Of a stretch of DNA of 64,000 nt, positions 33,173 through 52,052 are shown one piece after another. A program made the position numbers and the translations under genes. Numbering within the stretch: position 1 is the first letter of the stretch; every line of letters starts with the position of its first letter. This DNA comes from a phage. The notes under the pieces are model-generated. The model was not told the origin of the DNA and made no database searches. It saw only the letters and a list, made by a program, of their open reading frames with translations. The stretch is from NCBI GenBank assembly GCA_020241865.1, contig GCA_020241865.1_4709.1. One strand, 5' to 3'.

Positions 33173-35785
33173 TTAAGCGTCCGGCGTAAAATCAAAAGGA
33201 ATGTCCGTACGAATGATATCATAACGTTTTCCGAGGAAATAAAACTCTTCGGGAACCTGACCGGGAATAATGCTATCACCGATGAACTGCGGATACGCCC
33301 AGATGTACTGAGTGAGTCCTTCGAACATATCCAGGTTATTTGCGTGGTTACCCATGATACGTTTCCAGAGTTCGCGTTTATACGGCGTTTTAACATCGAA
33401 ACCATAAAGCGGTGCAAGATCTTCACCAGGAACAAATCCCAGGTAATAGTGAATCTGACTAACCGGGAAACCAAGCGTATCTCGCGGAATGGTGATCGCT
33501 TGCTCAGCTTTGGTGACATGCGTTTCAATAATCCAGTCGTAACACTCTGAATAGAACCGATCGAATTTCTCTGGATTATACCACGCTTTGGGAAGATTCA
33601 GTTTCTCCGTGAACGCATTCGACATGATCGTCGGTAAGAACGGAAGAACACCGGTTTTGATCTGCGTGTATTTCGATTTTACCCGGTTAGCCAAATTCCA
33701 GCAACTGTATCCTAACTGTTCGTTACAAAACTCAACGTAGAGATCGTAATCACCGCCGGATAATGGGTTGTTGATATCACCAATGTCTGCAGCGTATTTG
33801 TTGGGATATCGGTTATTGAAAGCCAGTTTGGTTTGGTAATCGTAGATACACGGTTTGTTGTTCGCTGTATTGATCCACCACCAGGGTTCACCCACCTGTA
33901 CACAAATGTCCTGGACATGAGGGTAAATAATATCGGCAAACGCGGTTAACACATCCCCTAACCACGCCATCGCCTGTTGGTTACATGGAGACAGCAACCA
34001 GGATGGTGGTGTATATCCGGTTGCTGCGATGTTTCCTTCCCAATCCTGCTGCGCCCACTCGAACGGGCATGCTGTACTCATCAATTCGTAACTTAAACTG
34101 ATGGTGACAGAGAAATGGTGTTTTGCAGCATATGCGGCGAAAGCTTCATGCCACGCGATACAGGGTGGATTTAATACATCCGTGGTGTTCACCAGTAACT
34201 TACCCGCACTTGGCGTCCAGACAGTATCGTAGAAATGCGACATTCCAACATAATGCACTAATTCATCTTGATACCCCGCATAAACCAGGTTCTCAAATAC
34301 GCGCTCCGGCGTGATGTTGTAATGGTCATCATAAGCGGTTATCGCACGAAGTTCGTGTGGTGTACAGTGGTGACGATTAACCGTCATTTCCTGATACACC
34401 CCATCGATAGGAAGAATCTCGAGGGTTAAACCGAGGTCGATTGGCGTTTCCAGATAGGTCGTTTCAGTCGCACCTTCCTTATAATGTCGAGAACTCATGC
34501 TGAACATCAACGATGCTACCGATTCGAGTTCGATAGGCTCGTCAGCATAGAACCCCGCCATTGCGTCATTGAAATCGATCGTTACGATTGCGCTTCTACC
34601 GTCTTCAGAGACATCGGTGGCGTATCGGGTTAATGAGATATACTGACGGCTATCGTCTTTGTGTACGACGGTTAAAACCGGCGGGTTTTCGGTATCTGCA
34701 AAGTTACGCTGATCGCCAGTAAACGTGATCTTCGCTTTAAAGATCAAACCGAATAACGACGTCATGGGATCATACGCAATACAACCGTGATCCAGCGTAT
34801 CCGTTGTCCGCCATTCTATCCCGACCAACCCGTTAGCGGTATGGCATCGCATATACGCATTAAGTACCATGTCTTCACTGACAACCGCGAAGTTCTCTGT
34901 TGACTGACCGTTGATAATCCAATACATCGGTTGCCAGAGGTTACGCGTACCTTTTGCGTAGCGGTAGGTTGGTGCGCCTTTGGGGTTGCCATTATTAAGA
35001 TGGAATACTGCAGTACCTTGATAATGGTCGTTCGTATTAATCGGAACACTGTAAGCGTCACCGAGGTCCGTACGTTCCACCTTCGTGACCGTTGCGTTTT
35101 CAAATAACCCACGCAGCGCGGGTAAACCGATATCTTCAGGCGCGTTTTCTCGACGAATCGCATCCGCGATGCGATGGGCTAAGGCGGGGTAAATAGCTTC
35201 ACCCTGTTGTAGGTTTGCAAGACCTACAAAGCGATCAGGGTCGATACCAGCAATCAATAACTCAACATCACCCTTCGTTCTATCGTCGTTAAGATATTTC
35301 AGTCCGGTAAGGTCAAGATGCTGAATAAGCGACAACAGGTTGTATTTACGGTTTTCAACAGTTAGTACAAGATCGCCTGCCCAAACCAAACTTCCCTCAT
35401 CCGCTGTTACTTTAACAGATTGTCGGCCTGTGGTAGACGTTGTTGTCGTTTTATTTAATTGTCCTTGTAGGAAGTCGGTTGCGAGGTCAAAGGCAATGCC
35501 GTAACGGTCAGCGACCGCTTGCATGATTTCACGTAACTGGGTATCTTCTTCAATGATAATCTTGACAGGTATTCCCAGGAACGCTTTAGCGAGGTCTCGT
35601 TTAACCAACGAGACGAATACGGATTTGTAGTATCGGCTTCCATCTTTCCCTTTAAAAAGAATGGAGGTTGTTTCGGGTGCCGATAGAACACGTGCAAATA
35701 CAACATCGTCGGAAGTAAGAGAAAGTCCGTTTTTCTCGTTGACCAATCCTAGTATTTCATTTTGCGCGGTTTCATGTAACTTCAT
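33173..35785 (-). CDS. tail fibre/tailspike-like protein (870 aa) with shared N-terminal anchor domain
   Basis: N-terminal ~130 aa (YxSVFVSLVKRDLAKAFLGIPVKI, RYGIAFDLATDFL) paralogous to N-termini of 41406..41933, 42090..43844, 47493..48323. Confidence 0.7.
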   Translation of the reverse strand: MKLHETAQNEILGLVNEKNGLSLTSDDVVFARVLSAPETTSILFKGKDGSRYYKSVFVSLVKRDLAKAFLGIPVKIIIEEDTQLREIMQAVADRYGIAFDLATDFLQGQLNKTTTTSTTGRQSVKVTADEGSLVWAGDLVLTVENRKYNLLSLIQHLDLTGLKYLNDDRTKGDVELLIAGIDPDRFVGLANLQQGEAIYPALAHRIADAIRRENAPEDIGLPALRGLFENATVTKVERTDLGDAYSVPINTNDHYQGTAVFHLNNGNPKGAPTYRYAKGTRNLWQPMYWIINGQSTENFAVVSEDMVLNAYMRCHTANGLVGIEWRTTDTLDHGCIAYDPMTSLFGLIFKAKITFTGDQRNFADTENPPVLTVVHKDDSRQYISLTRYATDVSEDGRSAIVTIDFNDAMAGFYADEPIELESVASLMFSMSSRHYKEGATETTYLETPIDLGLTLEILPIDGVYQEMTVNRHHCTPHELRAITAYDDHYNITPERVFENLVYAGYQDELVHYVGMSHFYDTVWTPSAGKLLVNTTDVLNPPCIAWHEAFAAYAAKHHFSVTISLSYELMSTACPFEWAQQDWEGNIAATGYTPPSWLLSPCNQQAMAWLGDVLTAFADIIYPHVQDICVQVGEPWWWINTANNKPCIYDYQTKLAFNNRYPNKYAADIGDINNPLSGGDYDLYVEFCNEQLGYSCWNLANRVKSKYTQIKTGVLPFLPTIMSNAFTEKLNLPKAWYNPEKFDRFYSECYDWIIETHVTKAEQAITIPRDTLGFPVSQIHYYLGFVPGEDLAPLYGFDVKTPYKRELWKRIMGNHANNLDMFEGLTQYIWAYPQFIGDSIIPGQVPEEFYFLGKRYDIIRTDIPFDFTPDA

Positions 35786-35807: not shown

Positions 35808-36449
35808 TTAAATGTACTGCTTACCGCCCACGAAGGAAGTTAACCAGTTCCCGCTGACGAGTTGTGATACCCAGCCTGGAACGGCTCTACCATTCTGGCT
35901 CATGATGTTACCACACCAACCAGGGAATCCGGGACGGATGTAATAGAAAGTTAAATTGTAGAGATGGCAATTCCATACCGCAACGTTATGTTTACCAGAA
36001 ACCGCTTTAAAGACAAACGCGACAGGTAACGGAGACGATAACAATTCGGTCACAGGGACGGCTGACCAGTTCGCATTCGCGTTCCATGGTTGCCAGGTAT
36101 GGCTGCGCGAGTCGCAATATACGTTACCGTTGTTACCGCGCCCACCCGCATTCCACCACAGCGACGGACTCATGTTCTTAAGTGAGGTAAATTGCTGCGG
36201 TGGAATATTAGGAATAATAACAGGGTTGGTACCTTGCCCATGTTTCTTTTCTTTTGCGTTCACATACCCGCTTATCGATTCGAGGTATTTGACACCAGGA
36301 TAATTATTCTGGACTTGTGTCGCAATATCACGAACATCGAACGTCCAGCAGATCATGGTGTTGTAGTAAGCATCGGTGTTGTCGTACCATGCGTTACCAT
36401 CTTGTAAACGTGCGCCACTATTCGGTGTTTTATCTGTGTTTATAGCCAT
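35808..36449 (-). CDS. hypothetical protein (213 aa), paralog of 36561..37277 (conserved C-terminal 45 aa)
   Basis: C-terminus RPGFPGWCGNIMSQNGRAVPGWVSQLVSGNWLTSFVGGKQY nearly identical to neighbour. Confidence 0.75.
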   Translation of the reverse strand: MAINTDKTPNSGARLQDGNAWYDNTDAYYNTMICWTFDVRDIATQVQNNYPGVKYLESISGYVNAKEKKHGQGTNPVIIPNIPPQQFTSLKNMSPSLWWNAGGRGNNGNVYCDSRSHTWQPWNANANWSAVPVTELLSSPLPVAFVFKAVSGKHNVAVWNCHLYNLTFYYIRPGFPGWCGNIMSQNGRAVPGWVSQLVSGNWLTSFVGGKQYI

Positions 36450-36547: not shown

Positions 36548-36578
36548 TATCTAACTTCAATTAAATTGAAGTTAGATA
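36548..36578 (-). terminator. perfect 15-bp inverted repeat (1-nt spacer), AT-rich hairpin overlapping stop codon of 36561..37277
   Basis: TATCTAACTTCAATT-A-AATTGAAGTTAGATA; followed on minus strand by U-rich sequence. Confidence 0.45.
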
Positions 36579-37277
36579 TTGTTTACCTCCAACAAACGAC
36601 GTTAACCAATTACCTGAAACAAGTTGCGATGCCCAGCCAGGCACTGCCCTACCGTTCTGGCTCATCACGTTACCTGCCCATCCCGGAAAACCAGGTCGGA
36701 AAATATATACTTGAATATGTGTTAAAGCGTTATCATTACCACCGCCAACAGCAACGTTACGACTCCCAGATGACGGGAAATATTCTTTTAAGAACAGAGG
36801 ATCGGTTGCTAATAAAGATGCGGGCCAAGGGTTCGCAGATGCATCAACATCGAATTCGGTCCATCGCCATTTACGTCCCGTGTCGAACCATGTCGATGTA
36901 CCACCACCCCTCACGACAAGATTGCGCGCATCATGGACATTATAAATTGATTCGATGTTACGCCATCCACCTTTTGCAGCGTTTGCTGCATAGCAAACCG
37001 CATTACCACCATTCTTCTTCTCGTAAACGGTTCGTTTGATATGAACACGGTCGATGAACGCTTCACCGTATTTGTTGACGAGCGTTTGTGCGATATCACG
37101 AAGATCGTGCATGTGAAAAGCGATGTCTTCGTTATGGAACCATGTTGTCTGGTTCCAGACGGTACCGTTTGGTTCGGCACACATCGATCGGATATTGTTG
37201 CGTTGATTAATCGCGATAAAACCCATTGTATACCTCGTTCCTATTCTCAAAAAGGAAATTTCATACGATGACGCCAT
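36561..37277 (-). CDS. hypothetical protein (~238 aa), paralog of 35808..36449
   Basis: ORF 36561..37313; N-terminal 12 codons of track ORF translate the GC hairpin; ATG 37277 has AGGAGG RBS. Confidence 0.7.
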   Translation of the reverse strand: MASSYEISFLRIGTRYTMGFIAINQRNNIRSMCAEPNGTVWNQTTWFHNEDIAFHMHDLRDIAQTLVNKYGEAFIDRVHIKRTVYEKKNGGNAVCYAANAAKGGWRNIESIYNVHDARNLVVRGGGTSTWFDTGRKWRWTEFDVDASANPWPASLLATDPLFLKEYFPSSGSRNVAVGGGNDNALTHIQVYIFRPGFPGWAGNVMSQNGRAVPGWASQLVSGNWLTSFVGGKQYLTSI

Positions 37278-37314
37278 AGCAGCTCCTCCTTCCCTTACGG
37301 GTTGGAGGAGCATA
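37275..37314 (-). terminator. GC-rich palindromic hairpin (family member, reverse orientation) containing the AGGAGG RBS of 36561..37277
   Basis: CTCCTCCTTCCC-TTAC-GGGTTGGAGGAG. Confidence 0.55.
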
Positions 37315-37319: not shown

Positions 37320-37826
37320 TTACTTACTGATAACCTCAACGGAGTTGGGATCAGCGATCAATGCACGATCGGTAGAACAGTTGAAGAAGACCATACCAAC
37401 ACCATCACCGTTCGAGTTCAGGGTTGAACTTACATAAGACAGGGTTGGTTTATTCATGCGGTAGAAGCGTTCGCTGGTAGTGGTATTGAACCCCAGATCA
37501 ACGTAGTCTTTCACCGTGGTGTACAACTGTGTGGACTCGAAAACGGTTACCGGAGAGTCAACGGTAAACTGACTGCCTTCATCCACAACCAGAACTTTAT
37601 CGTTCCAGATTTCAGTGGTTGAAAACTTCGGTTTCCAGTGTTCGAATTCCTGGGTTGCGCCCCAGCAAGAATAAACAGCGAGATTGCTGTTCTTCTCAAC
37701 AGGTTTCAACCCCACCAGTTGTGTCAGGTCTTTATCCAGGTTCGGTAAGCCTTCCAGCGTAGCGCACCCACCCAGAGAAAGTACCATCAACATACCAAGA
37801 ACGATCGCGCAGAGTTTTTTCATCAT
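37320..37826 (-). CDS. predicted lipoprotein (~168 aa)
   Basis: signal peptide MMKKLCAIVLGMLMVLSLGGC with lipobox-like LGGC; ATG 37826 with AGGAA RBS; immediately downstream of tail fibre gene. Confidence 0.7.
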   Translation of the reverse strand: MMKKLCAIVLGMLMVLSLGGCATLEGLPNLDKDLTQLVGLKPVEKNSNLAVYSCWGATQEFEHWKPKFSTTEIWNDKVLVVDEGSQFTVDSPVTVFESTQLYTTVKDYVDLGFNTTTSERFYRMNKPTLSYVSSTLNSNGDGVGMVFFNCSTDRALIADPNSVEVISK

Positions 37827-37874
37827 TAGATTTCCTTGTGTGTTAACGGAAGTGACTTCCATAAGGATTGATGA

Positions 37875-40800
37875 TTACTTTTTGAGCGCTTTAAGTTCTT
37901 CTTCCAACGCTTCCACTTTTGCCGTAAGCTTCTGTACTTGTTTGATTAATGGAACCACCAAACGTTCGTACATGACACCTTCAGCGACGAGTCCGTTAGA
38001 AGAAACGATAGCGGGGTCATCTTCTTCTGTTGCATCACGCCAGTGCACGTACTGCGGTGCGATCTCGCCAACCTCTTCAGCAATCAACCCATACCAACCC
38101 CAATCCTTGTTGTCTGCTTCACATGTAGAACGATACCACACAGGACGCATCTCCAATACTTTATCCGCTTGTTCATCCGTGATATTCTCGATATCTTTCT
38201 TATAGCGACGCGACGACGTTGAACGAAACACATTGTTGATCCCAGAAACAGGACTGATATACATGTTAGCCCCGCTGGTTGTAGTGCTAATGTCCCATAC
38301 CGCAAATCCGCCGTTACTCCCATTTTTTACGATCAATGTGTTGGCAATAATGTCCAGGTTATTGTCGTAACCGGTTAATTGTCTTTCCGTTACATAACTG
38401 GATAGATTGACCGAGTAGTTCTTACTGTTATAACAACGACGCCATCCTGGGCTGTTGGTACTGCCATTATAGTTGTCGTAGCTATAAATGAACTCGGAGT
38501 TGGTTTTCGCACCACTGACGGAAGACGTGGTTGCGGTCGTAACACGGATGGTATAGTTTGTCATCCCGAAGCTAACGACCTCGATAACAGCACCAGCCAG
38601 AGGGATAATACCGCACTTGGTTTCACTGTCTGGGATGTATGCGCTGTCGGCAGCTGCGAAGGAGCAACGTGCGACCCAGGCGCGGGTATTGAATGCACCT
38701 TGGTTTTGCAACAACGTGATAAACGATGAGGTCGTAATCGAGCTGTTATTATCACCGGTGATCAACCAGCCGGTCGGGCATGCGGTTGCGCCAACGTTTT
38801 TCGCTGTTAACGTGATGTTCTGCGATCCGTCGAAGGCTACGCCACTGATAGTACGCGCAGTCTGCAGTTTCGTCGCCGTTGCTGCGTTCCCTGATGTGTT
38901 CTGGTTCCCTGCGGCGTTAACACCCGGCAGATTGATATTCGCACTACCGTCGAAAGACACCCCACCAATGGTGCGGGCGGTTTTCAGTTTTGTCGCCGTG
39001 GCGGCATTACCGGTCGTGTCTTGGTTACCGGTGGTGTTTACCCCAGGTAGGTTGATATTGGCCGTTCCGTTAAATGAAACACCACCAATCGTCCGTGCCG
39101 TTTGCAACTTCGTTGCGGATGCCGCATTCCCCGTGGTGTTTTGGTTACCTGTTGTATTCACACCTGGGATACTATCCTTAGATGTGTAGATCTGTGCCCA
39201 TTCCGACCAGTTCGCATCTGATGCATCACGACGCGAACGTAGGTAAGCTGGAGCGTGTGCGCCTGAAGTACCTGACCATCCAATAAGGATCTCACCTTCA
39301 CCTACTGCGGTTGCTCCTTTAAGATGAACAACGTTACCGTAGGCTGTAGGGTATCCGTTATTGTACGCTTCATACATCTGGATACCCGTATTGCTGCCCT
39401 GGGTCGCATTAGCTAAAGCGGTGACCCGTCCCTTGGAAGCGAGCACGTTAATGCTAAAGCTAATATCGGTTGTACCGTCAAAGGCGACCCCATTAATCCT
39501 CCGCGCTGTTTGGAGTTTCGTGGCAGTAGCCGCATTACCAGAGGTACTCTGATTGCCTGCTTTGTTCACACCTGGTAAATCAATGTTGGCGGTTCCATCA
39601 AAGGACACGCCCCCTATGGTTCTCGCCGTCTGAAGTTTTGTTGCTGAACCAGCGTTTCCGGAAGTGCTTTGATTACCCGCCGCGTTGACACCTGGTAGGT
39701 TAATGCTAGCAGAACCATCAAAAGAAACTCCACCGATCGTAATAGCTGTTCGCAACTTCGTGGCTGTCGCAGCGTTACCCGTCGTATTCTGATTACCAGC
39801 TGCATTGACGCCAGGTAATGCGATATCAGCTGTGCCATCGAACGCGACACCTCCGATTTTACGGGCGGTTTGTAGCTTGGTTGCTGTAGCAGCATTACCG
39901 CTGGTATTTTGCGTACCGGCTTTATTTACACCAGGAAGATCGATGTTAGCAGAACCATCGAAGCTGACGCCACCTATCGTTCTTGCAGTAGCAAGTTTAG
40001 CGGCTGTAGCAGCGACGTTACCGACTTTTAACCATTCTCCCCATGGACCATCCACACCGTTCCATGATGCCGTTAAACTGCGCACGTATATGTTTCCTGT
40101 ACGTACTGTGTAACGTTGTGTTCCACCGAATTGACCGGCTGGGAGCACTTCGATGTAACCTACAGCATTTGCTTCAGGGAAATTGTGGGCAGCATCGGCA
40201 TTCGTTGATGTTTGTTTGGACCAAATACCCACAGACGCTTCAACCGGACCGTAGGTATTCAGGTTTGCATCGGTTGGGAGTTGTCCTCTGAAACGACGGA
40301 ACGACGAGGCGTTAATTCCCAATATCGTTTGCATCCCTTCAACACCGGACTGCTGTAAGAGAGCGCGTGCGGTAGAAGTGATCGTTGCAAGCGCTACTTT
40401 ATCAGCACCTGTGAAATACGGTAATTTATTCGCTGATGTTGTTAGTCCAGAAAGGGCTGTGAGCAAAGCGTTCAGCGGTTGTTTGCCAGCTAAAGCGTTT
40501 GTTACAGTTGTCGCGAAGTTAGGATCGTTACCTAACGCTTGCGCCAATTCATTGAGTGTGTCCAACGCTTCAGGAGACGATCCGACAAGCGCTGCGATAG
40601 CACGCATCACAAATTCGGTATTCGCAATCTGCTGACTTTTATCGCCTTCGGCTGCGGTTGGTGTTGTCGGCTTATCGGTAAATGCCGGGCTAGAAAGATC
40701 CGCTTTAGCGCTAATTTGTGTTGCTAGGACTTTCCCGGCTTTCGCGGATAGTGCGAGTACTTCACTATCACTGTTCGTCGCCGAGGTTAACTGAACTAAC

Positions 40801-41399
40801 CCTTTACGTGTGGTACTAGCGTCCACTGCTGTGTACTTTCCTTTCGCAACATCCATCACAGCTTTAACTGCTTTTGATGTTGCGGCTTTGGTTTCGTCGT
40901 CACTATTTGTTTCGCTGCTAAGGATCGTTAATCCCCGTTTCTCGGTGGTCGCATCTGGTAAGAATGCGTCACTAACAACCTTCAATTCGATCGCATCGGT
41001 ATTGCTTACGACAACAAATACCTGACAATTTAACACACGTCCTGCCCCTTCGGAAGGCAGTGGTTTGTACCCTTCTGGCGCATTGCCGACAACGACAAGT
41101 TCACCCTGATCGTCGTACAGACCGATCTCACGCACCCAGAACCCACCTTGACTGGCGGGAATAATGCCTTCAACAACAATCCGGGTTGTGTCGTCAACAT
41201 CAATGTGGATGTTAGAAACTTCCCCACGATAAACTTCGTGTACGAGCGCTGTTTGGCTAACATCGGGGGTTGGTGTAGAGCCGTTTCCGTCACCAACAGC
41301 AAAATGTGTGATTCTTAGTTTCTCACCGTCAGGAAGTAGCGCTGCGGCAATACGTTCAGCGCCTTTATCGGTAATGACCGTTTTATAAGTTGTACTCAT
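37875..41399 (-). CDS. long tail fibre (1174 aa) with tandem 38-aa repeats and C-terminal S74-type intramolecular chaperone domain
   Basis: TTRKGLVQLTSATNSDSE fibre motif (cf. lambda Stf); ~8 repeats of ATKLQTARTIGGVSFDGSANINLPGVN; C-terminal SSRRYKKDIENI...WGWYGLIAEEVGEIAP matches auto-cleaving chaperone signature. Confidence 0.85.
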   Translation of the reverse strand: MSTTYKTVITDKGAERIAAALLPDGEKLRITHFAVGDGNGSTPTPDVSQTALVHEVYRGEVSNIHIDVDDTTRIVVEGIIPASQGGFWVREIGLYDDQGELVVVGNAPEGYKPLPSEGAGRVLNCQVFVVVSNTDAIELKVVSDAFLPDATTEKRGLTILSSETNSDDETKAATSKAVKAVMDVAKGKYTAVDASTTRKGLVQLTSATNSDSEVLALSAKAGKVLATQISAKADLSSPAFTDKPTTPTAAEGDKSQQIANTEFVMRAIAALVGSSPEALDTLNELAQALGNDPNFATTVTNALAGKQPLNALLTALSGLTTSANKLPYFTGADKVALATITSTARALLQQSGVEGMQTILGINASSFRRFRGQLPTDANLNTYGPVEASVGIWSKQTSTNADAAHNFPEANAVGYIEVLPAGQFGGTQRYTVRTGNIYVRSLTASWNGVDGPWGEWLKVGNVAATAAKLATARTIGGVSFDGSANIDLPGVNKAGTQNTSGNAATATKLQTARKIGGVAFDGTADIALPGVNAAGNQNTTGNAATATKLRTAITIGGVSFDGSASINLPGVNAAGNQSTSGNAGSATKLQTARTIGGVSFDGTANIDLPGVNKAGNQSTSGNAATATKLQTARRINGVAFDGTTDISFSINVLASKGRVTALANATQGSNTGIQMYEAYNNGYPTAYGNVVHLKGATAVGEGEILIGWSGTSGAHAPAYLRSRRDASDANWSEWAQIYTSKDSIPGVNTTGNQNTTGNAASATKLQTARTIGGVSFNGTANINLPGVNTTGNQDTTGNAATATKLKTARTIGGVSFDGSANINLPGVNAAGNQNTSGNAATATKLQTARTISGVAFDGSQNITLTAKNVGATACPTGWLITGDNNSSITTSSFITLLQNQGAFNTRAWVARCSFAAADSAYIPDSETKCGIIPLAGAVIEVVSFGMTNYTIRVTTATTSSVSGAKTNSEFIYSYDNYNGSTNSPGWRRCYNSKNYSVNLSSYVTERQLTGYDNNLDIIANTLIVKNGSNGGFAVWDISTTTSGANMYISPVSGINNVFRSTSSRRYKKDIENITDEQADKVLEMRPVWYRSTCEADNKDWGWYGLIAEEVGEIAPQYVHWRDATEEDDPAIVSSNGLVAEGVMYERLVVPLIKQVQKLTAKVEALEEELKALKK
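38790..40025 (-). repeat. in-frame tandem ~114-bp (38-aa) repeats inside tail fibre gene, two blocks (approx 38790-39180 and 39450-40025)
   Basis: periodic DNA/protein repeats; antisense ORFs here are repeat artefacts. Confidence 0.8.
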
Positions 41400-41405: not shown

Positions 41406-41933
41406 TTATCCCGGGTAAATAGTGATGACATCACCGATGACAGTTGCCGCACCGGCGCAAAGATACGCTGGTGATGTATCACGCTGGTTTGTCACGATAA
41501 GATCCAATTGCCCACGCCAAACCATGGAGGTATTCGCGATGGGAATCGAGATCTTCTTGGATGTGTCGTCACGAAAATCAATGACAGTAGCAAGGATAGC
41601 TGAATCAAAATCAGCATCGGTTTCAAAGATGAATCCGTACTGATCTGAAATAGCTTGAATAACCGCTCTTATAGTTGTTGTTTCAACCGACTCCAAAACG
41701 ATTTTCATCGGTATCCCTAGAAACGCTTTCGCGATATCACGTCGTGTGTAAGTGATAAAACTTTCACCACACCACCTTGTTCCTTCATTTGCTGTGACGA
41801 TCACTTTTGCCCTGTTAGCACCAGAACTCCTATCCAGGGTTAAAGTGAGATCGGAGTTGCTGAACACGCTACCGTTACGTTGGTTTATCAACGTAATCAG
41901 TTCGTCTTTCCACGGCAGGTAAAGTGAACGCAT
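41406..41933 (-). CDS. short protein (~175 aa) consisting mainly of the shared tail-fibre N-terminal anchor domain
   Basis: ORF 41406..41954; ATG 41933 (MRSLYLPWKDELI) with GGAGG RBS; YTRRDIAKAFLGIPMKI, DQYGFIFETDADF blocks. Confidence 0.65.
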   Translation of the reverse strand: MRSLYLPWKDELITLINQRNGSVFSNSDLTLTLDRSSGANRAKVIVTANEGTRWCGESFITYTRRDIAKAFLGIPMKIVLESVETTTIRAVIQAISDQYGFIFETDADFDSAILATVIDFRDDTSKKISIPIANTSMVWRGQLDLIVTNQRDTSPAYLCAGAATVIGDVITIYPG

Positions 41934-41950
41934 AAGCGCACCCTCCTCCA

Positions 41951-42001
41951 ACAATCAAATTAAGATGCAAAACGCCTCGAAACCGGAGTGCGATTCGAGG
42001 C
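41951..42001 (-). terminator. putative intrinsic terminator downstream of 42090..43844
   Basis: GCCTCGAA-loop-TTCGAGGC followed on minus strand by GUUUUGCAUCUUAAUUU. Confidence 0.45.
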
Positions 42002-42039: not shown

Positions 42040-42093
42040 CATATTACCCCCCCCCCCCTCGCTTCGTCGAGGTAGGGGAGGATAACACTTTAT
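42040..42093 (-). terminator. degenerate family-like hairpin containing a C12 homopolymer
   Basis: CATATTA-C12-TCG-CTTCGT-CGAGGTAGGGGAGG...TTTATG downstream of 42090..43844 stop. Confidence 0.35.
42047..42058. repeat. C12 homopolymer tract (intergenic)
   Basis: 12 consecutive C between 41933 start and 42090 stop. Confidence 0.7.
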
Positions 42094-43844
42094 GCCGCTA
42101 CATACCCAGGCCAACGTTCTCTTGGCCAGTTTGTTGCGCCCTGTCCAACGTTGTCCTTACCAGAAGTTACATTACTTACGTCCCAACCACTAAGATCCTG
42201 GTTAAATGCGGTGTTGTTGCGCATCATGAGGTCGATCCTACGTAACGATTGGGTATTCCAGCCGGAAATGTCTTGGTTGAATGCCGCGTTGTAAGCAAAC
42301 ATGTTAACAACGTCTTGTAATTTTGAAGTGTTCCAGCCGCTTATATCGCTATTGAACCGCATGTTCGAGAACATACTGCTAGCGTTGACAAGACTACCTG
42401 TTTTCCAGTTAACCAGCTTGTCCCCATCAAGTGCATAGCAGCTACTGAACATGTAACTCATGTCGTTAACTTTGGATACATCCCATTTATCTAACCCGTT
42501 ACCAACGAACTTGCGACAATCTTGGAACATCGAGCTCATATCGGTAACCTGGCTCACATTCCATTTGCTAAAGTCGAGGTTGAGGTTTGTGCATCCGGAG
42601 AAGGTTTGATACATACTGGTGATACGACTAACATCCCATTCTTGAATGTTAGGATCATTAAGTATAGATAAGAATTTGAACAATTCGTCTAACGACGTCC
42701 ATTTCTCTGGGATACGGTTTGGTACGGTACGGAGTGATAAAAGGTAACTGGTTGACGGAGAGCGGAACATACCGTTATCCCAATTTACGATTTCTGTAAT
42801 GTTGGACCCACGGATCGTTTGGCGTCCGTTACCATTATACACAGACCCTGTTGCAGTTATTGTATATTCGTTTGTATCAGCATACGTATATTCAGCCTGT
42901 GTAGGCCACTCACCTATTACATCCCTATTCCCATCGCCCCAATCAATGGAAATATCTATCCAACCATCAAGATCTAGGGTAACGGTCCCGCCATTGGTCT
43001 TCAGGACGTATTTACCTGCATTGTCGGTATAATAACAAACAATCATCGCACCGTACAGGTTACCAATTTGCCAATCATCCTTTTGAGTTACCGCGATATG
43101 TGCTGTGCCACGTTGTAGGAAAAGAACCGTACGGTTCTCGTCAGTCTGTAATGTGGTTAATGCTTGAGCCTTATCATCGTCGGTAATTTCACCAGCTTCC
43201 ACTAAAGCACTTAACATTCTTTCGAAGTATTCGATGGGTAATTGGCGTCCTACAGACATATCAACTGATGGAACAGCGAGATCATCCAATGCGGCGGCAG
43301 TTGCAAGCACTAATGATCCATTGGTGGTGTCTGTTTCTTGGAGGTAATGCAGTCCCGTAATCTGGTACGCTTGAATGATTGTAATCAGATCCAGCGTATC
43401 GTTAATGACCTGTACTTGTAAATGTCCAGACCAAACATAGCTGCTTTCAGCAATCGGTAATTCGACCGACTGAATACCCGATGTTTCAAAACTGATCTTC
43501 TTATTAAGATCGGCTTCCAGGAAATCAACCGCGAGGTCGAAATTTATACCGTACTTTTCAGCGATGGAATCTATGATGTTCCTGAAAGCAACATCGGTAC
43601 TTACGATGAATCGTAAAGGGATTCCTGTGAACGCATTAGCAATATCTCGACGAACATACGTAAGTGATTGTTCGAAGAAATAGGGACTGTTATCTCCAGG
43701 TTTGATGGTTACCTGACACATTTCAGGATGTTCAGCTGGGATGAACGATTCAAATTTAACATCGGATTCCTTCAACGAAAGCATGTTCTTCCGGTTTACC
43801 AGCGCCAGAAGATCGGCTTTCCATCCAGGATAAACAGTAGACAT
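42090..43844 (-). CDS. tail fibre/receptor-binding protein (~584 aa): shared N-terminal anchor domain plus C-terminal DUF285-like repeats
   Basis: N-terminus paralogous to 33173..35785; C-terminal repeats FxxCxxF...WDVSKV/ISGWNTS/LSGWDVSNVT; ATG 43844 with GGAG RBS. Confidence 0.75.
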   Translation of the reverse strand: MSTVYPGWKADLLALVNRKNMLSLKESDVKFESFIPAEHPEMCQVTIKPGDNSPYFFEQSLTYVRRDIANAFTGIPLRFIVSTDVAFRNIIDSIAEKYGINFDLAVDFLEADLNKKISFETSGIQSVELPIAESSYVWSGHLQVQVINDTLDLITIIQAYQITGLHYLQETDTTNGSLVLATAAALDDLAVPSVDMSVGRQLPIEYFERMLSALVEAGEITDDDKAQALTTLQTDENRTVLFLQRGTAHIAVTQKDDWQIGNLYGAMIVCYYTDNAGKYVLKTNGGTVTLDLDGWIDISIDWGDGNRDVIGEWPTQAEYTYADTNEYTITATGSVYNGNGRQTIRGSNITEIVNWDNGMFRSPSTSYLLSLRTVPNRIPEKWTSLDELFKFLSILNDPNIQEWDVSRITSMYQTFSGCTNLNLDFSKWNVSQVTDMSSMFQDCRKFVGNGLDKWDVSKVNDMSYMFSSCYALDGDKLVNWKTGSLVNASSMFSNMRFNSDISGWNTSKLQDVVNMFAYNAAFNQDISGWNTQSLRRIDLMMRNNTAFNQDLSGWDVSNVTSGKDNVGQGATNWPRERWPGYVAA

Positions 43845-43859
43845 AAGCACTCCAATCAT

Positions 43860-43882: not shown

Positions 43883-46800
43883 TTAAATTGTCGGTTTCAC
43901 GTCGCGTAATAGGGCAATATAATAGCCTAATCCTCGGAGGATCTCCCCACTCCAGAAACCAAAATACATTCCGTCTCTGCCGAGATTAGCACTATCTGGT
44001 GCAGGACTCCACCCACCATTCATTGCGTCATCAACGGTGTAGCGGTTGATGTAGTTTTCAACGATTTCATTATAAACGTTAACGGCAACAGGATAGCCTT
44101 TATCGTTGGGATGCCCATACAACATCGCTAACGACGCACCCGCTAACCATAATCCTGCCATATGACCAGTAAAGTCATTAGGGATAAAAGCAGGGGGTTT
44201 ATCCATCGGAAAATCCGTAGGAGATTGATAAGCGTTTTCCTGTTGATACGTAAACAAGAAATCGATCCAATGGCTGATGTAAGTGGTTAACTTCTCAGGG
44301 ACAGCCAAACCACGATCAAGCAGTCCGGCATAAAGCCTCACCACTGAAAAGAAAGCCCTCGGCTGATAACCAGGCCATGCTGTCTGATCGCCGAAGTGGT
44401 ACATCGTAAAATCATTAACTTTCGATCCGCTTGGCGCATCCCAACGATCCCACACGTACGCACTTGCTCCTGGCCCTAAAACCCCGAATTTCTGATAATA
44501 CCACTGCTGCGAGTCATACCAGAAATTCACAACATTCTGAATCATGAGGTCACGTCGTTCAGCCGATACGTCCATATCCAGGAAGACCCATGGATGTTGG
44601 TAGCCGGGATAAGGCTGACCACGCCAGCTGTCGAACGTCGGTGCGTTAGGGATATAGTTGTTCGAGAACGGAATAATACCCGGAGTATAAGGCAATGGAT
44701 CCAGACGTTGGTTGACAATCGTACAATCGCCAACACGCAATGTGCCCTCTGCCTCAAAGATTGCTTTTAACGTAAACAGCATGGTATATCCGTCATCCGT
44801 GGTGTAAGTTGACGGTGGATTGTTGATGGCGTAAAGCTTAAATACCCCTTCAGCGATATCGCTGTCATCAGGCAAGAACAGAATTTCAGTTGAACCGTCG
44901 CCCCACACAGGTGCGGAAGGTTTAGGGTCAGTATCAGCATGGCCAGGTTGATACCCTGAGAGCCTCCATCCGTTCGCCGAAAGCGTCAATGTATTTCTTG
45001 CTGTGGTGGCCGGTAGCATATACCACCATCGCCAACCATTTGCATCTTCTACACGAACGTTGTAGTCAATCGACGCGAAATAACTGACCTGCCTTACGAT
45101 CTGTTTTGCGGTTGGATTGAATTCAAATTGTCCGCCTGCCGCAGTAAGCTGCGCTTTTAGGAACAACCCATCCCAGGAATCTTCCACTGCTTCGCTGAAT
45201 TCTGTTGTGATTGCGATATCGTCTTTCCAGCCGACTTTATCAGCCGACATCAACACCGAACCTGTAACAGCATCACCGGTTGGTATTGAAGCTTCATCAA
45301 CCGCATCAGCGGGAATCAACGAGCCTATTTTGAAATCCCATCCTTTCGGTTCAACGCTGGAAGGTAATACCAGCTTGTACGTTTTGGCTTTCGCTTCGGT
45401 TTTGTCCAAAGAAAGCGATAATGAGATCTCAACCGGAATTGCAACGCCTGTCGTATCTTTACCGCCGCAGGTTACCCGAAGAATTGAATCACGATTGACG
45501 CGGAACGGAATGGCCTGCTGTTCAAGGTAAATTTGTGCTGAAGATGCTTGAATCACGATCCAACCATCGGTATCACGCGTGATTGTGAACGGCGCTTTCG
45601 ACGGGTATGTATACGTGTAAGCGATACCGTCGGTGTCGTAACGATCGGTTCCTTTTACTTGACGGAAGAACTTATCGTTAGCGTCAATACGGGTATATTC
45701 TTCAATCGTAAACAAAGACGCCTTGTACGCTTTCTGATAACGCTCCTGCTGCGTTAAACGGTATAAGGTGTAGGCTGCTTCACAAAACCACTGTTCAGCG
45801 TCTGACGCGTTTCCCATGTAGTCTCTGGTGACCGGCACCTGGATCGGTCGGTTATGCTGACACTCGTTCGTTTTGATAAGGTATCCGCCATATTCAACAG
45901 GAACACGCGGTGCCCATGCAACCAAGTAAGAACCGCTGACGGATTTATTTTTGAGTACGATAGTACCTACTTCATCGTCAGTACACGCTTCAAGATCGTC
46001 CCCGTCAGCACTTACGTAACGTTTTGTGCGTAACGCAACTTTCTCGATAGGGAACACCGTACCCTTTGTATCCCAGTCAATCGTCCCATCATCATTGGTT
46101 TTGAACACATCCGCGTTCAAATTCTGCCAGCCGAGTTTACCTTCATAGACCTGAACAACAAGATCCATGTATTCCCCGAACGTTGGTGCCCCATGTGTTA
46201 TTTTCCCGATACCGTTGGTGAATGTAACCGCTGTGTCATGGAAACCGCCATGTGTTGGGTAATCGTCTTTTGCAAGAGGATAATGGGCCAACACAGGTTG
46301 TTTACCATTAACAATCCAGTTAGCGATCCAGCGTGCCGGTGTATCCGGTGGTTCAAGGCCTGCATAGAACGCTTTTATATACGCATCGAACGATGCCTCT
46401 GCTAATGTGAGATAGTGCGCTTTAAGCTTGGTATCATCCGTTGTATGACTGAATATACCCGCACCCAGAATTAACAACGACTGTCCTTCTGTTGTTGCGT
46501 CACCATCCGGTTGTGCTTCTTGTCGTGTTGCTGCAATGAAATGACGGTTGTTTACCATGACCCCGCTTTCATTTAACACGTAATGATCGGTTTCTGGGTC
46601 GGTAAACGTTCCTGTGTTTCGGGTTAAGAATCTTGCATGGCCATAACCAACGAAATTAACCGGCGACGCTGTAATCATCCATTTACCGATAAGTTGAGCA
46701 ACATCATTATAACGCTCGGATGCGGTGATTTGTTTCACGTACCAGTCTTTATGGTTAAATGTCCAAAGCAGGAAGTAATAAGTTGTATCGATTTCCATCA

Positions 46801-47479
46801 CTGGGAACGTCGGCGTTAACGGCTCCAGCGTTAAGTAGTTGCTCCAGTCAATCTGTCCGCCAACCACCGATGGGGTAATCTCTAATAACTGACACCATTC
46901 ATAACGGTCCGGTACACTACTGGACGTTGTTGGTAAAGGTAACTTGTATACGCCAGTACGATTCAGATCGAACGCTTTTCTAGCCGATCCTAAATCAACA
47001 TAAATACTCGATGATGCGCTTGCACTATATGCCCCCAAAGCACCTAGCGTTGACCGATACATTGAGATGAACAACGTATCTTTCCAGTAAGGGTTATCCT
47101 TGGTTGGTTCTAAAGCGATTTGTGCGGAGATGCTGTTCCATGTCCCTAACTGGTATGTCGCATTTAAAGATTCTTCTGTGAAATAACTTTCTGCAATCGT
47201 CAGATGGAACTGCTCGTTCAATAACGCGAGTGCGGCGCGGCCAGTAACATCCTCGTTACCGGTTTCTTTTTTCACGATCGCGCCGAACGGAAACAGTGTC
47301 GCGAATGACCGTTTTGGTTTATTAACCGTAACCGTCCCTGTGTAATTTCCAACACCGTCGAGTTTTTGACTATCGCCAACAGCAGTGACTGCGATACCAT
47401 CAACCGGGATATCTGTTTTATTTAGTATATTGAGTTGGTCAACCAGATCCTGCTTATCGTCAGGTAAGAATGTCGCCAT
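43883..47479 (-). CDS. large hypothetical protein (1198 aa), likely tail fibre/tailspike or other virion protein
   Basis: long ORF within fibre cluster; ATG with AAGGTGGAG RBS; no shared N-domain, no catalytic motif recognised. Confidence 0.75.
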   Translation of the reverse strand: MATFLPDDKQDLVDQLNILNKTDIPVDGIAVTAVGDSQKLDGVGNYTGTVTVNKPKRSFATLFPFGAIVKKETGNEDVTGRAALALLNEQFHLTIAESYFTEESLNATYQLGTWNSISAQIALEPTKDNPYWKDTLFISMYRSTLGALGAYSASASSSIYVDLGSARKAFDLNRTGVYKLPLPTTSSSVPDRYEWCQLLEITPSVVGGQIDWSNYLTLEPLTPTFPVMEIDTTYYFLLWTFNHKDWYVKQITASERYNDVAQLIGKWMITASPVNFVGYGHARFLTRNTGTFTDPETDHYVLNESGVMVNNRHFIAATRQEAQPDGDATTEGQSLLILGAGIFSHTTDDTKLKAHYLTLAEASFDAYIKAFYAGLEPPDTPARWIANWIVNGKQPVLAHYPLAKDDYPTHGGFHDTAVTFTNGIGKITHGAPTFGEYMDLVVQVYEGKLGWQNLNADVFKTNDDGTIDWDTKGTVFPIEKVALRTKRYVSADGDDLEACTDDEVGTIVLKNKSVSGSYLVAWAPRVPVEYGGYLIKTNECQHNRPIQVPVTRDYMGNASDAEQWFCEAAYTLYRLTQQERYQKAYKASLFTIEEYTRIDANDKFFRQVKGTDRYDTDGIAYTYTYPSKAPFTITRDTDGWIVIQASSAQIYLEQQAIPFRVNRDSILRVTCGGKDTTGVAIPVEISLSLSLDKTEAKAKTYKLVLPSSVEPKGWDFKIGSLIPADAVDEASIPTGDAVTGSVLMSADKVGWKDDIAITTEFSEAVEDSWDGLFLKAQLTAAGGQFEFNPTAKQIVRQVSYFASIDYNVRVEDANGWRWWYMLPATTARNTLTLSANGWRLSGYQPGHADTDPKPSAPVWGDGSTEILFLPDDSDIAEGVFKLYAINNPPSTYTTDDGYTMLFTLKAIFEAEGTLRVGDCTIVNQRLDPLPYTPGIIPFSNNYIPNAPTFDSWRGQPYPGYQHPWVFLDMDVSAERRDLMIQNVVNFWYDSQQWYYQKFGVLGPGASAYVWDRWDAPSGSKVNDFTMYHFGDQTAWPGYQPRAFFSVVRLYAGLLDRGLAVPEKLTTYISHWIDFLFTYQQENAYQSPTDFPMDKPPAFIPNDFTGHMAGLWLAGASLAMLYGHPNDKGYPVAVNVYNEIVENYINRYTVDDAMNGGWSPAPDSANLGRDGMYFGFWSGEILRGLGYYIALLRDVKPTI

Positions 47480-47492: not shown

Positions 47493-48323
47493 TTAATCGT
47501 AACTAAAATAAAGTTTGCTGCTGACGCCGCTATCGGAATGAGGTTTTAATACCAGAACAGAGCTTCCGAACGACGGAAGTATTGGAACATCTAAATCGTT
47601 CGCATCGGCAACTTTTCCATTATAAACGACATTGGCTGTTGTGATGAGTTCCCAGGCTAAGGTATAACTCATTGAAATCAGCGACGAGGCTAAACGGAAC
47701 GCATTGTATCCTTCTGGAGTATCTCCAACCGACATCGAACGTATCGCATCTTGCGGCGGTAAATTTAGCTTGATGCCGTATGTACTGAATGTGTGGAAAT
47801 CCCCTTGTTTACTATCTTCTGGATAATACGAGGTTAGCGGTTCTCGTACCGTAAACAGTTCGCTAATATCGGTACTTACCGCTTTTCGTGCGAGGAATTG
47901 AAACGTACCGTACCACGATGCCGATGCATCAGAATGAACGGGAACAGATATGGTTTTCTCGCCGCTTTCGAATTTAACCTGTGACGCTAACGCTGAAGAA
48001 TCAAAGATCGTTAAATCGATCTTCAACCCATACTTCTTAAACAGCTGCGTTAAGCAGTCTGCTATCGTCGTCATATCAGCAACGACAATAAAAGGTTGGT
48101 GTTTGATAAAGAGCTTATTAATGTCTCGACGTTGAAGATAAACCTGTACGGAGTCTTCGATATAGTAAGTCGATTGTGGTGTGGGGACTATAGAAAGGCG
48201 TAACCGACCCGATGCACCATACCAGGCTGGCGTTAACATAATGTCTGACAGGGATAATGGATGCTGGAGATAGGTGTTTATTTTAGATAACACTTCCTCC
48301 TGCCATGATGCTTCAGGATACAT
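47493..48323 (-). CDS. protein (276 aa) carrying the shared tail-fibre N-terminal anchor domain
   Basis: YLQRRDINKLFIKHQPF and KKYGLKIDLTIFDS blocks align with the anchor domain of 33173..35785 and 42090..43844. Confidence 0.7.
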   Translation of the reverse strand: MYPEASWQEEVLSKINTYLQHPLSLSDIMLTPAWYGASGRLRLSIVPTPQSTYYIEDSVQVYLQRRDINKLFIKHQPFIVVADMTTIADCLTQLFKKYGLKIDLTIFDSSALASQVKFESGEKTISVPVHSDASASWYGTFQFLARKAVSTDISELFTVREPLTSYYPEDSKQGDFHTFSTYGIKLNLPPQDAIRSMSVGDTPEGYNAFRLASSLISMSYTLAWELITTANVVYNGKVADANDLDVPILPSFGSSVLVLKPHSDSGVSSKLYFSYD

Positions 48324-51920: not shown

Positions 51921-52052
51921 GAACTCCTTCTTACTTTTTCTGATAAAGCGATGATTCAAATTTTAGAAACATCACTAACGCGAATGCGAGTAATAACGCA
52001 CGTACCCACATACCTCCTTGACAACTGTTGTACAACATAAAGACCAGAGCGA

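What the first reader, a model, noticed from the sequence alone, without database searches (positions are those of the whole stretch)
37320..37826. Lipoprotein gene immediately downstream of the long tail fibre gene: candidate superinfection-exclusion factor
The product has a lipoprotein signal peptide (MMKKLCAIVLGMLMVLSLGGC, with A at +2 implying outer-membrane sorting). Several phages place a lipoprotein next to their receptor-binding genes to mask the receptor after infection (Llp or Cor type). Position and topology fit that role.
Basis: inference. Interest (0 to 1): 0.5.

Follow-up and report, generated by a model that had tools for sequence, protein, structure and literature searches.

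The report
Conserved jumbo-phage outer-membrane lipoprotein, function unproven
The gene is a real lipoprotein of a family found only in giant nucleus-forming phages of enterobacteria and always encoded among their host-recognition genes, but the evidence argues against it masking the tail fibre's receptor as phage T5's Llp does, so what it does at the cell envelope is still open.

Summary
A 168-aa ORF on the minus strand (37826..37320) starts 48 nt after the 1174-aa tail-fibre gene. It has a good ribosome-binding site and a textbook lipoprotein signal (LGGC, Ala at +2).

The window is a close relative of E. coli jumbo phage Goslar, and the protein is 98% identical to Goslar gp88. It belongs to PHROG 9559, a family found only in Goslar-, SPN3US-, Machinavirus- and Wellington-type phages. 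All 27 members examined keep the lipobox, a non-Asp +2 residue and exactly two further cysteines. The mature part models confidently as a tethered eight-stranded beta-barrel with no close solved relative.

The Llp/Cor reading is only partly supported:
- The gene always lies among DUF7941/fibre host-recognition genes.
- It does not co-vary with three different fibre tips and is under strong purifying selection.
- It has no similarity to Llp, Cor or Rtp45.
- Goslar's only genetically detected receptor is the LPS core, which a periplasmic lipoprotein cannot jam.

Published mass spectrometry finds gp88 at about 740 copies per Goslar virion, alongside abundant host OmpA, OmpC and OmpF. This is probably co-purifying outer membrane.

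Best guess: an abundant, late, envelope-acting exclusion or progeny-protection factor with a conserved target.

The parts
37320..37826 (-). Lipoprotein precursor CDS (168 aa; alternative start at 37823 gives 167 aa, as annotated in Goslar gp88)
   Evidence: ORF and translation; 98.2% aa identity to Goslar gp88; PHROG 9559, E 1.5e-21; dN/dS 0.04
37833..37837 (-). Shine-Dalgarno AAGGA, 6 nt upstream of the ATG
   Evidence: Read directly from the sequence
37767..37826 (-). Signal peptide, residues 1-20 (n-region MMKK, h-region LCAIVLGMLMVLS, lipobox L-G-G before Cys21)
   Evidence: invariant G20 and C21 in the family alignments
37764..37766 (-). Cys21 codon: predicted lipid-attachment site, followed by Ala at +2 (not the Asp retention signal, so outer-membrane sorting is expected)
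   Evidence: the +2 rule is established knowledge of the Lol pathway
37680..37763 (-). Residues 22-49: flexible tether. Low model confidence; about 8 residues longer in the Goslar clade than in SPN3US/Erwinia homologues
   Evidence: pLDDT 47-62 for mature residues 1-20; alignment gaps
37374..37679 (-). Residues ~50-151: eight-stranded antiparallel beta-barrel. Invariant Cys54 (codon 37665-37667) lies in the first strand and Cys150 (codon 37377-37379) in the last; a disulfide between them is inferred
37282..37311 (-). Strong conserved RNA hairpin starting 8 nt after the stop codon (8-bp GC-rich stem GCUCCUCC/GGAGGAGC). It may be a 3'-end stabiliser or terminator, and it sequesters a downstream SD-like GGAGGAG
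   Evidence: MFE -26.2 kcal/mol, z -4.35, 0 of 200 shuffles as stable; identical in Goslar except one loop base
37875..41399 (-). Upstream long tail fibre gene (1174 aa) with a C-terminal intramolecular chaperone. Its tip differs from Goslar gp90, which needs the separate Tfa gp89
   Evidence: Pfam; blastn/blastp against Goslar
36561..37313 (-). Downstream gp87-type gene absent from Goslar (listed as 250 aa; probable true start is M30 at 37226, giving 221 aa). 93% identical to the gene that follows the lipoprotein in L007
35808..36449 (-). Orthologue of Goslar gp87 (213 aa, 96% identical). It shares a ~45-aa C-terminus with the 250-aa ORF. Goslar gp87 is present at about 19 copies per virion

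Best explanation
Anatomy (well supported). [quoted passage not shown] A tether of about 28 residues then holds a compact eight-stranded beta-barrel of about 100 residues in the periplasm. The barrel is probably stapled by a Cys54-Cys150 disulfide. The protein belongs to a family confined to nucleus-forming jumbo phages of Enterobacterales. In every clade examined the gene lies among the DUF7941 and tail-fibre host-recognition genes. In the Goslar clade it is co-oriented with late structural genes, and Goslar gp88 accumulates to very high levels.

Function (inferred). It is the one non-structural, envelope-directed product of the host-recognition gene block. It most likely alters the infected cell's outer membrane or periplasm so that further phage particles cannot engage productively. 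Those particles could be superinfecting phages, or progeny meeting lysed-cell debris. Because the protein is more conserved than the receptor-binding genes around it, its target should be a conserved and probably abundant envelope component, or a conserved step of phage entry. It is unlikely to be the variable receptor of the adjacent fibre.
For: Signal and sorting:
- This is the only lipobox ORF in the 64 kb.
- The SPII signal, a non-Asp +2 residue and exactly two further cysteines are kept in 27/27 homologues.

Distribution: tblastn hits 55 phage records, all jumbo phages of Escherichia, Salmonella, Erwinia or Proteus. An exhaustive HMM search of 1.84 billion representatives gives only 17 hits, and the hits of the word-indexed search include several on contigs of about 240 kb.

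Synteny with host-recognition genes:
- Goslar and the window.
- L007 and L005.
- SPN3US gp159, next to gp160 (DUF7941) and 2.3 kb from gp155 (DUF7941 + GP38 adhesin domain).
- Machinavirus.

Conservation:
- dN/dS 0.04-0.09.
- 98% / 86% identity where the neighbouring gp91 homologue is 85% / 60%.

Abundance: Goslar gp88 has 20 peptides and an estimated 737 copies per virion in CsCl material. That material also holds large amounts of host OmpA, OmpC and OmpF. This is consistent with a heavily expressed outer-membrane protein.

Precedent: Llp and Rtp45 are exclusion proteins encoded beside receptor-binding genes (PMC9586334, PMC12685063).
Against: - No functional test exists.
- There is no homology to any known exclusion protein.
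- Co-orientation with late genes suggests late synthesis, which is too late to exclude early superinfection.
- Goslar's known receptor is LPS core, so no outer-membrane protein target is known.
- The very high abundance and the fold are equally compatible with other envelope roles.
- Lipidation and localisation are inferred, not shown. The MS coverage arithmetic does not settle signal-peptide removal. The 37 uncovered residues can be residues 1-31 + FYR + MNK, or equally MKK + the 31-residue peptide + FYR.
Confidence: 0.35

Rival explanations
1. Llp/Cor/Rtp45-type receptor mask. The lipoprotein binds the periplasmic face of the outer-membrane receptor used by the adjacent tail fibre (or the gp87-type protein) and distorts it so that the phage can no longer bind.
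For: Lipoprotein with an outer-membrane signal, directly after the fibre gene. This order is conserved in the Goslar clade. SPN3US gp155 nearby carries a GP38-type adhesin domain; by recall, such domains bind outer-membrane proteins in T-even phages. Essential outer-membrane proteins such as LptD and BamA are invisible to transposon screens, so a protein receptor cannot be excluded.
Against: No co-variation: three unrelated fibre tips and two gp87 types go with a 98% / 86% identical lipoprotein. The Goslar screen returns only LPS-core genes. There is no sequence or fold similarity to Llp, Cor or Rtp45. The mature protein is 147 aa, far larger than the 'small' lipoprotein Llp (PMC9586334). dN/dS of 0.04 is not what an arms-race interface would show.
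Confidence: 0.1
2. Lysis function. The lipoprotein is the outer-membrane component of the lysis system. It could be a separated, atypical o-spanin-like protein or another outer-membrane-disrupting or lysis-timing factor. Alternatively it could restrain the phage's own exported cell-wall hydrolase until lysis.
Against: No adjacent or embedded i-spanin gene. No C-terminal TMD, so it is not a u-spanin. It is a folded 147-aa barrel with 4% Pro, unlike the short Pro-rich o-spanins. PHROG matches to Rz-like spanins cover only the signal peptide, at E 0.13-0.47. There is no Pfam MliC hit. The conserved linkage is to DUF7941/fibre genes rather than to lysis genes, which lie 12.5 kb away here.
Confidence: 0.2
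3. Post-adsorption exclusion of the Spackle type. The tethered barrel binds and inhibits a periplasm-acting component of incoming virions of the same phage family, such as the tail-tip peptidoglycan hydrolase or the puncturing device. This would block entry or lysis from without.
For: The protein evolves with the phage backbone rather than with the receptor-binding genes, as expected if the target is a conserved phage part. It has a periplasmic tether-plus-barrel architecture. It shows fold-level resemblance to lysozyme-inhibitor barrels. By recall, T4 Spackle is a precedent for a periplasmic inhibitor of a tail lysozyme.
Confidence: 0.1
4. Genuine high-copy virion-associated protein. After lysis the lipoprotein attaches to virions, for example to the DUF7941 fibre cloud, and travels with them.
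For: Estimated 737 copies per virion in CsCl-purified Goslar. It is the fourth most abundant unmodelled protein, and the authors give it no function. Conserved synteny with DUF7941 genes. Other abundant unmodelled proteins checked (gp158, gp168) have no export signal, so gp88 stands out among them.
Against: An exported lipoprotein is topologically separated from cytoplasmic virion assembly (inference from established knowledge). The same preparation holds host OmpA at a comparable order of magnitude: the best OmpA peptide has area 879,000, against 529,000 for the best gp88 peptide seen in the stored part of the table. It also holds non-virion assemblies such as chimallin and PhuZ. The SPN3US homologue gp159 is absent from the SPN3US virion protein lists, although its neighbour gp160 is abundant there. 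gp88 was not among the proteins the authors verified with GFP fusions.
Confidence: 0.1

Closest known systems
Goslar gp88 (QBO63881 / YP_009820773) and PHROG 9559 (SPN3US gp159, Erwinia Machinavirus and Wellington 'Lipoprotein' entries)
   Same: Orthologue at 98% aa identity. Same signal, same two cysteines and same position after the fibre module. The family profile matches at E 1.5e-21.
   Different: None of these proteins has an assigned function. The window phage has a different fibre tip and an extra gp87-type gene beside the lipoprotein.
T5 Llp (superinfection-exclusion lipoprotein that jams FhuA from the periplasm; PMC9586334)
   Same: Phage-encoded outer-membrane lipoprotein facing the periplasm, encoded beside a receptor-binding gene in a virulent phage.
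   Different: No sequence or fold similarity. It is a 147-aa barrel, whereas Llp is a small lipoprotein. It does not co-vary with the receptor-binding gene. The known receptor of the Goslar orthologue's phage is LPS, not a TonB-dependent transporter. Synthesis is probably late and abundant rather than early.
Rtp45 of phage Rtp (exclusion protein binding LptDE; PMC12685063) and Cor of T1/phi80
   Same: Exclusion factors encoded next to tail-tip receptor-binding genes that act on an outer-membrane protein. LptD shows that an essential, conserved protein can be the target, and a transposon screen would miss such a protein.
   Different: No homology detected. There is no evidence that this phage uses LptD or any other outer-membrane protein.
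MliC/PliC/PhiA periplasmic or lipoprotein lysozyme inhibitors
Rz1-type o-spanins
   Same: Phage-encoded outer-membrane lipoprotein with conserved cysteines.
   Different: No i-spanin partner gene nearby, not Pro-rich, and a folded barrel three times the usual size.

Membership tests
Bacterial-type lipoprotein precursor (signal peptidase II substrate) | Basic n-region, hydrophobic h-region and a lipobox [LVI][ASTG][GA]C ending about 15-25 residues from the start | tested here: met
   MMKK / LCAIVLGMLMVLS / LGGC. The same architecture is present in 27/27 homologues.
Bacterial-type lipoprotein precursor (signal peptidase II substrate) | Actual diacylglyceryl/acyl modification of the Cys and cleavage by LspA | not testable with these tools
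   The published MS neither shows nor excludes it. The stored peptide list contains no peptide with ATLEGLPNLDK, and the coverage arithmetic is ambiguous.
Outer-membrane-sorted lipoprotein (Lol pathway) | No Asp at position +2 after the lipidated Cys | tested here: met
   +2 is Ala here. Across the family it is A, K, S, V, T or Q and never D.
PHROG 9559 / Goslar gp88 family | Significant full-length profile match | tested here: met
   E 1.5e-21 over residues 1-153; 98% identity to gp88; invariant G20, C21, Y52, C54, P66, G84, R120, Y122, S134, G140, G142 and C150.
T5 Llp-type exclusion lipoprotein | Sequence or structural homology to Llp | tested here: not met
T5 Llp-type exclusion lipoprotein | Encoded beside the receptor-binding gene | tested here: met
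   48 nt downstream of the fibre gene. The same order holds in Goslar, L007 and L005.
T5 Llp-type exclusion lipoprotein | Specificity tracks the receptor-binding protein (the lipoprotein changes when the receptor-binding domain changes) | tested here: not met
   Identity is 98% / 86% across three unrelated fibre tips and two gp87 types; dN/dS 0.04-0.09.
T5 Llp-type exclusion lipoprotein | The phage's receptor is an outer-membrane protein with a periplasmic face that the lipoprotein binds | tested here: not met
   The Goslar RB-TnSeq hits are galU, rfaC/E/F/G/I/P/Q/Y and rfaH only, and the receptor is assigned as LPS GluII. Caveats: essential outer-membrane proteins are not screened, and the window phage's own receptor is unknown.
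T5 Llp-type exclusion lipoprotein | Expression blocks adsorption or infection | not testable with these tools
   Needs experiment.
Cor (T1/phi80/N15) and Rtp45 | Sequence homology | tested here: not met
   No PHROG or PDB-sequence match.
o-spanin (Rz1-like) | Partner i-spanin gene adjacent, overlapping or embedding, on the same strand | tested here: not met
   The neighbours are the fibre gene and a gp87-type gene, and neither has a TMD. The nearest N-terminal-TMD protein is 10.6 kb away.
o-spanin (Rz1-like) | Short, Pro-rich, largely unstructured periplasmic domain | tested here: not met
   147 aa, 4.1% Pro, confident beta-barrel.
u-spanin (T1 gp11-like) | Lipoprotein signal plus a C-terminal transmembrane helix | tested here: not met
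   The C-terminus ...ADPNSVEVISK is hydrophilic. The only hydrophobic segment is the signal peptide.
MliC/PliC lysozyme inhibitors | Pfam MliC-family match | tested here: not met
   No Pfam hit at E up to 10 for this protein or three homologues.
MliC/PliC lysozyme inhibitors | Eight-stranded beta-barrel fold | tested here: inconclusive
DUF2846 (annotation carried by the pEa_SNUABM_43 homologue) | Pfam DUF2846 match | tested here: not met
   No such hit for the pEa_SNUABM_43 protein or the others at E up to 10.

The most novel reading that the evidence does not exclude
The lipoprotein is not debris. It is a lipid-anchored protein that loads onto released virions after lysis, for example onto the DUF7941 fibre cloud whose genes it always accompanies, at several hundred copies per particle. 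It might transiently cap the fibres so that progeny escape the debris, or give the virion a membrane-active adaptor. That would make it a virion-associated bacterial-type lipoprotein acquired outside the cytoplasm, which has no known parallel in tailed phages.
Probability: 0.08. Interest if true: 0.8.

Novelty: new variant of a known kind. Interest (0 to 1): 0.42.

Why it matters
Little is established about how nucleus-forming jumbo phages (Chimalliviridae) handle superinfection, progeny loss on debris, or outer-membrane disruption. This family is their one conserved outer-membrane lipoprotein in the Enterobacterales-infecting lineages, and it is embedded in the host-recognition genes.

If it is an exclusion factor, it acts on a conserved target rather than on the variable receptor. 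That would be a different logic from Llp, Cor and Rtp45, and it would bear on phage-cocktail design with jumbo phages.

The analysis also offers an explanation for an unexplained result in a 2026 preprint. The fourth most abundant 'unmodelled virion protein' of Goslar carries a lipoprotein export signal, and it co-occurs with abundant host OmpA, OmpC and OmpF. Its estimated 740 copies per virion probably reflect co-purified outer membrane.

Tried and rejected
- **Family libraries.** Pfam and NCBIfam scans of this protein and three homologues gave nothing beyond signal-peptide noise, even at E up to 10. The 'DUF2846' label on one GenBank homologue could not be reproduced.
- **Solved structures.** The PDB sequence-profile search found only chance hits at E 0.078 or weaker.
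- **Other fold libraries.** The AlphaFold-database Foldseek library was not available. The viral-structure library returned family members and weak, uninformative hits.
- **Signal-peptide removal.** I tried to prove it from the published coverage figure of 77.84% (130 of 167 residues). The 37 missing residues have two equally good decompositions, so I dropped the argument.
- **Other abundant Goslar proteins.** I checked whether other abundant unmodelled Goslar proteins are also exported. gp158 and gp168 are not, so this gives no extra support for debris.
- **Literature dead ends.** The SPN3US infection-proteome paper (Weintraub 2019) is not held. The BASEL paper has no Goslar-type phage. No paper links jumbo-phage lipoproteins to exclusion.
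- **Promoter scan.** The sigma-70 consensus scan found fewer sites than the shuffles. It is not informative for a phage that uses its own RNA polymerases.

Full report
**What the window is.**
- A 2-kb query around the finding matches only Escherichia phage vB_EcoM_Goslar, a 237-kb nucleus-forming jumbo phage in the genus Goslarvirus, at about 92% identity.
- A blastn of window 29-46 kb against the Goslar locus shows a 96% collinear backbone interrupted by replaced segments.

**The observation.**
- The gene is on the minus strand: ATG at 37826, stop at 37322-37320, 168 aa.
- An AAGGA ribosome-binding site lies 6 nt upstream.
- The N-terminus MMKK-LCAIVLGMLMVLS-LGGC|A is a canonical signal peptidase II signal.
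- The upstream gene (37875..41399) is a tail fibre with a Phage_tail_fib N-terminus, fibre repeats and a Peptidase_S74 intramolecular chaperone. It ends 48 nt before the lipoprotein start.
- A lipobox pattern run over all ORFs and all start codons of the window finds only this gene and one spurious 44-47-aa ORF.
The finding did not mention the strand.

**The family.**
- The protein is 98.2% identical to Goslar gp88, annotated 'hypothetical protein'.
- It matches PHROG 9559, function unknown.
- tblastn finds homologues in 55 phage records, all jumbo phages of Erwinia, Salmonella, Escherichia or Proteus. They include SPN3US gp159 and Machinavirus and Wellington phages.
- A word-indexed search of 5.8 billion proteins with a profile gave 32 hits. 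An exhaustive HMM search of 1.84 billion representatives gave 17. I saw nothing bacterial among them, and several hits sit on contigs of about 240 kb.
- In a 27-sequence alignment, G20 and C21 of the lipobox and two further cysteines (C54, C150) are invariant.
- Every member has a basic n-region, a hydrophobic core of 8-14 residues, [LVA][AGST]GC, a +2 residue that is never Asp, and exactly two cysteines in the mature part.
- By the established +2 rule, this predicts sorting to the outer membrane.
- dN/dS is 0.04 against Goslar (20 synonymous and 3 non-synonymous differences) and 0.09 against the metagenomic relative L007.

**Structure.**
- A full-length AlphaFold2 model was weak (pLDDT 63).
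- A mature-domain model with 31 sequences is confident: pLDDT 82, pTM 0.76, core above 90, and all five models at 80-82.
- It shows a disordered tether of about 28 residues followed by eight beta-strands. C54 lies in the first strand and C150 in the last, so a barrel-closing disulfide is a reasonable inference.
- This is a generic small meander barrel. No Llp or Rtp45 chain appears in the lists.
- A profile search of PDB chain sequences finds nothing meaningful.

**Genomic context.** In the window the whole minus-strand block from 33.2 to 48.3 kb is host-recognition genes:
- five DUF7941 proteins (33173..35785 with a TIM-barrel domain, 41406..41954, 42090..43859 with DUF285 repeats, 47493..48323, and the Goslar gp92 homologue 43883..47479);
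- the fibre;
- two gp87-type genes.

The Goslar structure preprint proposes that DUF7941 proteins form a 'cloud' of host-recognition filaments. The lipoprotein is the only product of the block that carries an export signal.

The association with these genes is conserved:
- In L007 (lipoprotein 86% identical) the order is DUF7941, fibre, DUF4376 chaperone, lipoprotein, gp87-type gene.
- In L005 (48% identical) a 1375-aa protein with a weak DUF7941 N-terminus precedes the lipoprotein.
- In SPN3US the gene is divergent from gp160, a DUF7941 protein that is highly abundant in virions. It lies 2.3 kb from gp155, which combines DUF7941 with a GP38 adhesin domain.
- In Machinavirus it is divergent from a run of three DUF7941 genes.

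**Evidence against a neighbour-specific receptor mask.**
- The fibre tip next to the gene exists in three unrelated forms: Goslar has a P1 S-like tip plus the Tfa gp89, the window has an S74 self-chaperone, and L007 has a DUF4376 chaperone.
- The downstream gp87-type gene exists in two forms that are only 37% identical to each other. The window carries both.
- Despite this, the lipoprotein stays 98% and 86% identical, more conserved than gp91 (85% and 60%) or the fibre N-terminus (80% and 73%).
- A 2026 preprint that ran genome-wide transposon screens on 255 coliphages assigns Goslar's receptor as LPS outer core (GluII). Its hits for Goslar are galU, rfaC, E, F, G, I, P, Q, Y and rfaH, and no outer-membrane protein.
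- Llp and Rtp45 work by binding the periplasmic side of a protein receptor. That mechanism cannot apply to LPS.
- The caveat is that essential proteins such as LptD and BamA are invisible to such screens, and the window phage's own receptor is unknown.

**The mass-spectrometry datum.**
- The Goslar cryo-EM preprint lists gp88 among ten proteins of unknown function present at more than 200 copies per virion.
- Its Table S4 gives 20 peptides, 77.84% coverage and an estimate of 737 copies, with a range of 491-1158. Neighbouring gene products are far rarer: gp87 about 19, gp89 about 52, gp90 about 43 and gp86 about 4.5 copies.
- The authors do not mention a signal peptide.
- The peptide sheet also contains host proteins. 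OmpA, OmpC and OmpF appear with many entries. One OmpA peptide has area 879,000, against 529,000 for the best gp88 peptide seen in the stored part of the table.
- The authors note that the preparation also carried chimallin and PhuZ assemblies.
- An exported lipoprotein is separated from cytoplasmic virion assembly until lysis. The simplest reading is therefore a very abundant late outer-membrane protein co-purifying on membrane fragments to which virions stick.
- The SPN3US homologue gp159 is absent from the SPN3US virion protein tables in the main text and supplement, while gp160 is abundant there. This fits that reading.
- I could not establish signal-peptide removal from the coverage figure, because two decompositions fit it equally well.
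- Two other abundant unmodelled Goslar proteins, gp158 and gp168, have no export signal.

**The lysis alternative.**
- The window holds a candidate lysis cluster at 48.4-52.7 kb. It comprises a signal-bearing SleB-type hydrolase, two small proteins with two TMDs each, a secreted 116-aa protein and a 191-aa type II membrane protein.
- That cluster contains no lipoprotein, so an outer-membrane lysis role for this gene cannot be excluded.
- However, there is no partner gene nearby, no C-terminal TMD and no Pro-rich short domain. The PHROG spanin matches cover only the signal peptide.

**Verdict.**
- The sequence observation is solid, and the protein is almost certainly an outer-membrane lipoprotein with a periplasmic barrel.
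- Its conserved placement among host-recognition genes makes an adsorption- or entry-related envelope function the best guess, at about 0.35.
- The specific Llp/Cor model for the adjacent fibre's receptor is disfavoured, at about 0.1.
- Lysis-related (0.2), Spackle-like (0.1) and true virion-association (0.1) readings remain open.
- It is an uncharacterised family already present in databases, so the gene itself is not new. As a candidate exclusion factor it would be a structurally and logically distinct variant of a known kind.

Noticed in passing
window 36502-37222 (ORF 36561..37313, minus strand): Insertion relative to Goslar that carries a second gp87-type gene. It is 93% identical to the gene following the lipoprotein in metagenomic locus L007 and 37% identical to the Goslar-type gp87 at 35808..36449. 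The two paralogues share only a ~45-aa C-terminus (…RPGFPGW.GN.MSQNGRAVPGW.SQLVSGNWLTSFVGGKQY). Goslar gp87 is estimated at about 19 copies per virion, which would fit a trimer on a six-fold baseplate, so these may be exchangeable receptor-binding cassettes. The true start is probably M30 (37226), because in Goslar the upstream 15 codons end in a stop.
   Followed up: partly
window 37875-38790 versus Goslar gp89-gp90; L007 4339-7984: The fibre C-terminus is modular. The window has a Peptidase_S74 intramolecular chaperone, Goslar has a P1 S-like tip plus a separate Tfa, and L007 has a DUF4376 chaperone. The N-terminal 180-209 residues stay 73-80% identical.
   Followed up: partly
window 37282-37311, minus strand: Very stable hairpin starting 8 nt after the lipoprotein stop codon (-26.2 kcal/mol, z -4.35). 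It is conserved in Goslar and has no U-tract. It might stabilise the 3' end of the lipoprotein mRNA or control the downstream gene's ribosome-binding site.
   Followed up: partly
window 42090-43859, minus strand: A 589-aa DUF7941 + DUF285 (BspA-like repeat) gene occupies a 1.7-kb segment absent from the corresponding place in Goslar. A 584-aa DUF7941 + DUF285 gene lies in the equivalent block of L007.
   Followed up: partly
window 48460-52672, minus strand: Candidate lysis cluster: a SleB-type cell-wall hydrolase with an N-terminal signal or SAR-like segment (50299..50796), two holin-like proteins with two TMDs each (51338..51709 and 51726..51959), a Sec-signal 116-aa protein (52322..52672), and a type II membrane 191-aa protein (48460..49035). 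No spanin pair is recognisable.
   Followed up: partly
L006 (SPN3US) 170-2347, gp155: SPN3US gp155 combines an N-terminal DUF7941 module with a T-even GP38 adhesin domain (Pfam E 7e-18). This suggests a fibre-cloud protein that binds an outer-membrane protein. It is annotated only as hypothetical.
   Followed up: no
Goslar virion MS, Table S4 of bioRxiv 10.64898/2026.04.21.720040: Host OmpA, OmpC and OmpF peptides are abundant in the CsCl-purified virion sample. The published copy-number table lists only phage proteins, so outer-membrane carry-over is not visible there.
   Followed up: partly
P0028-P0032 (Salmonella SPFM phages): Annotated 166-172-aa proteins match the family profile only in several short scattered stretches (up to 7). 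tblastn, by contrast, finds an intact homologue in the same genomes. This looks like frame errors or mis-called ORFs in those records.
   Followed up: no
L003 6869-7399 (Erwinia phage pEa_SNUABM_43): The homologue is annotated 'DUF2846 domain containing protein', but no Pfam DUF2846 match is found even at E up to 10.
   Followed up: yes
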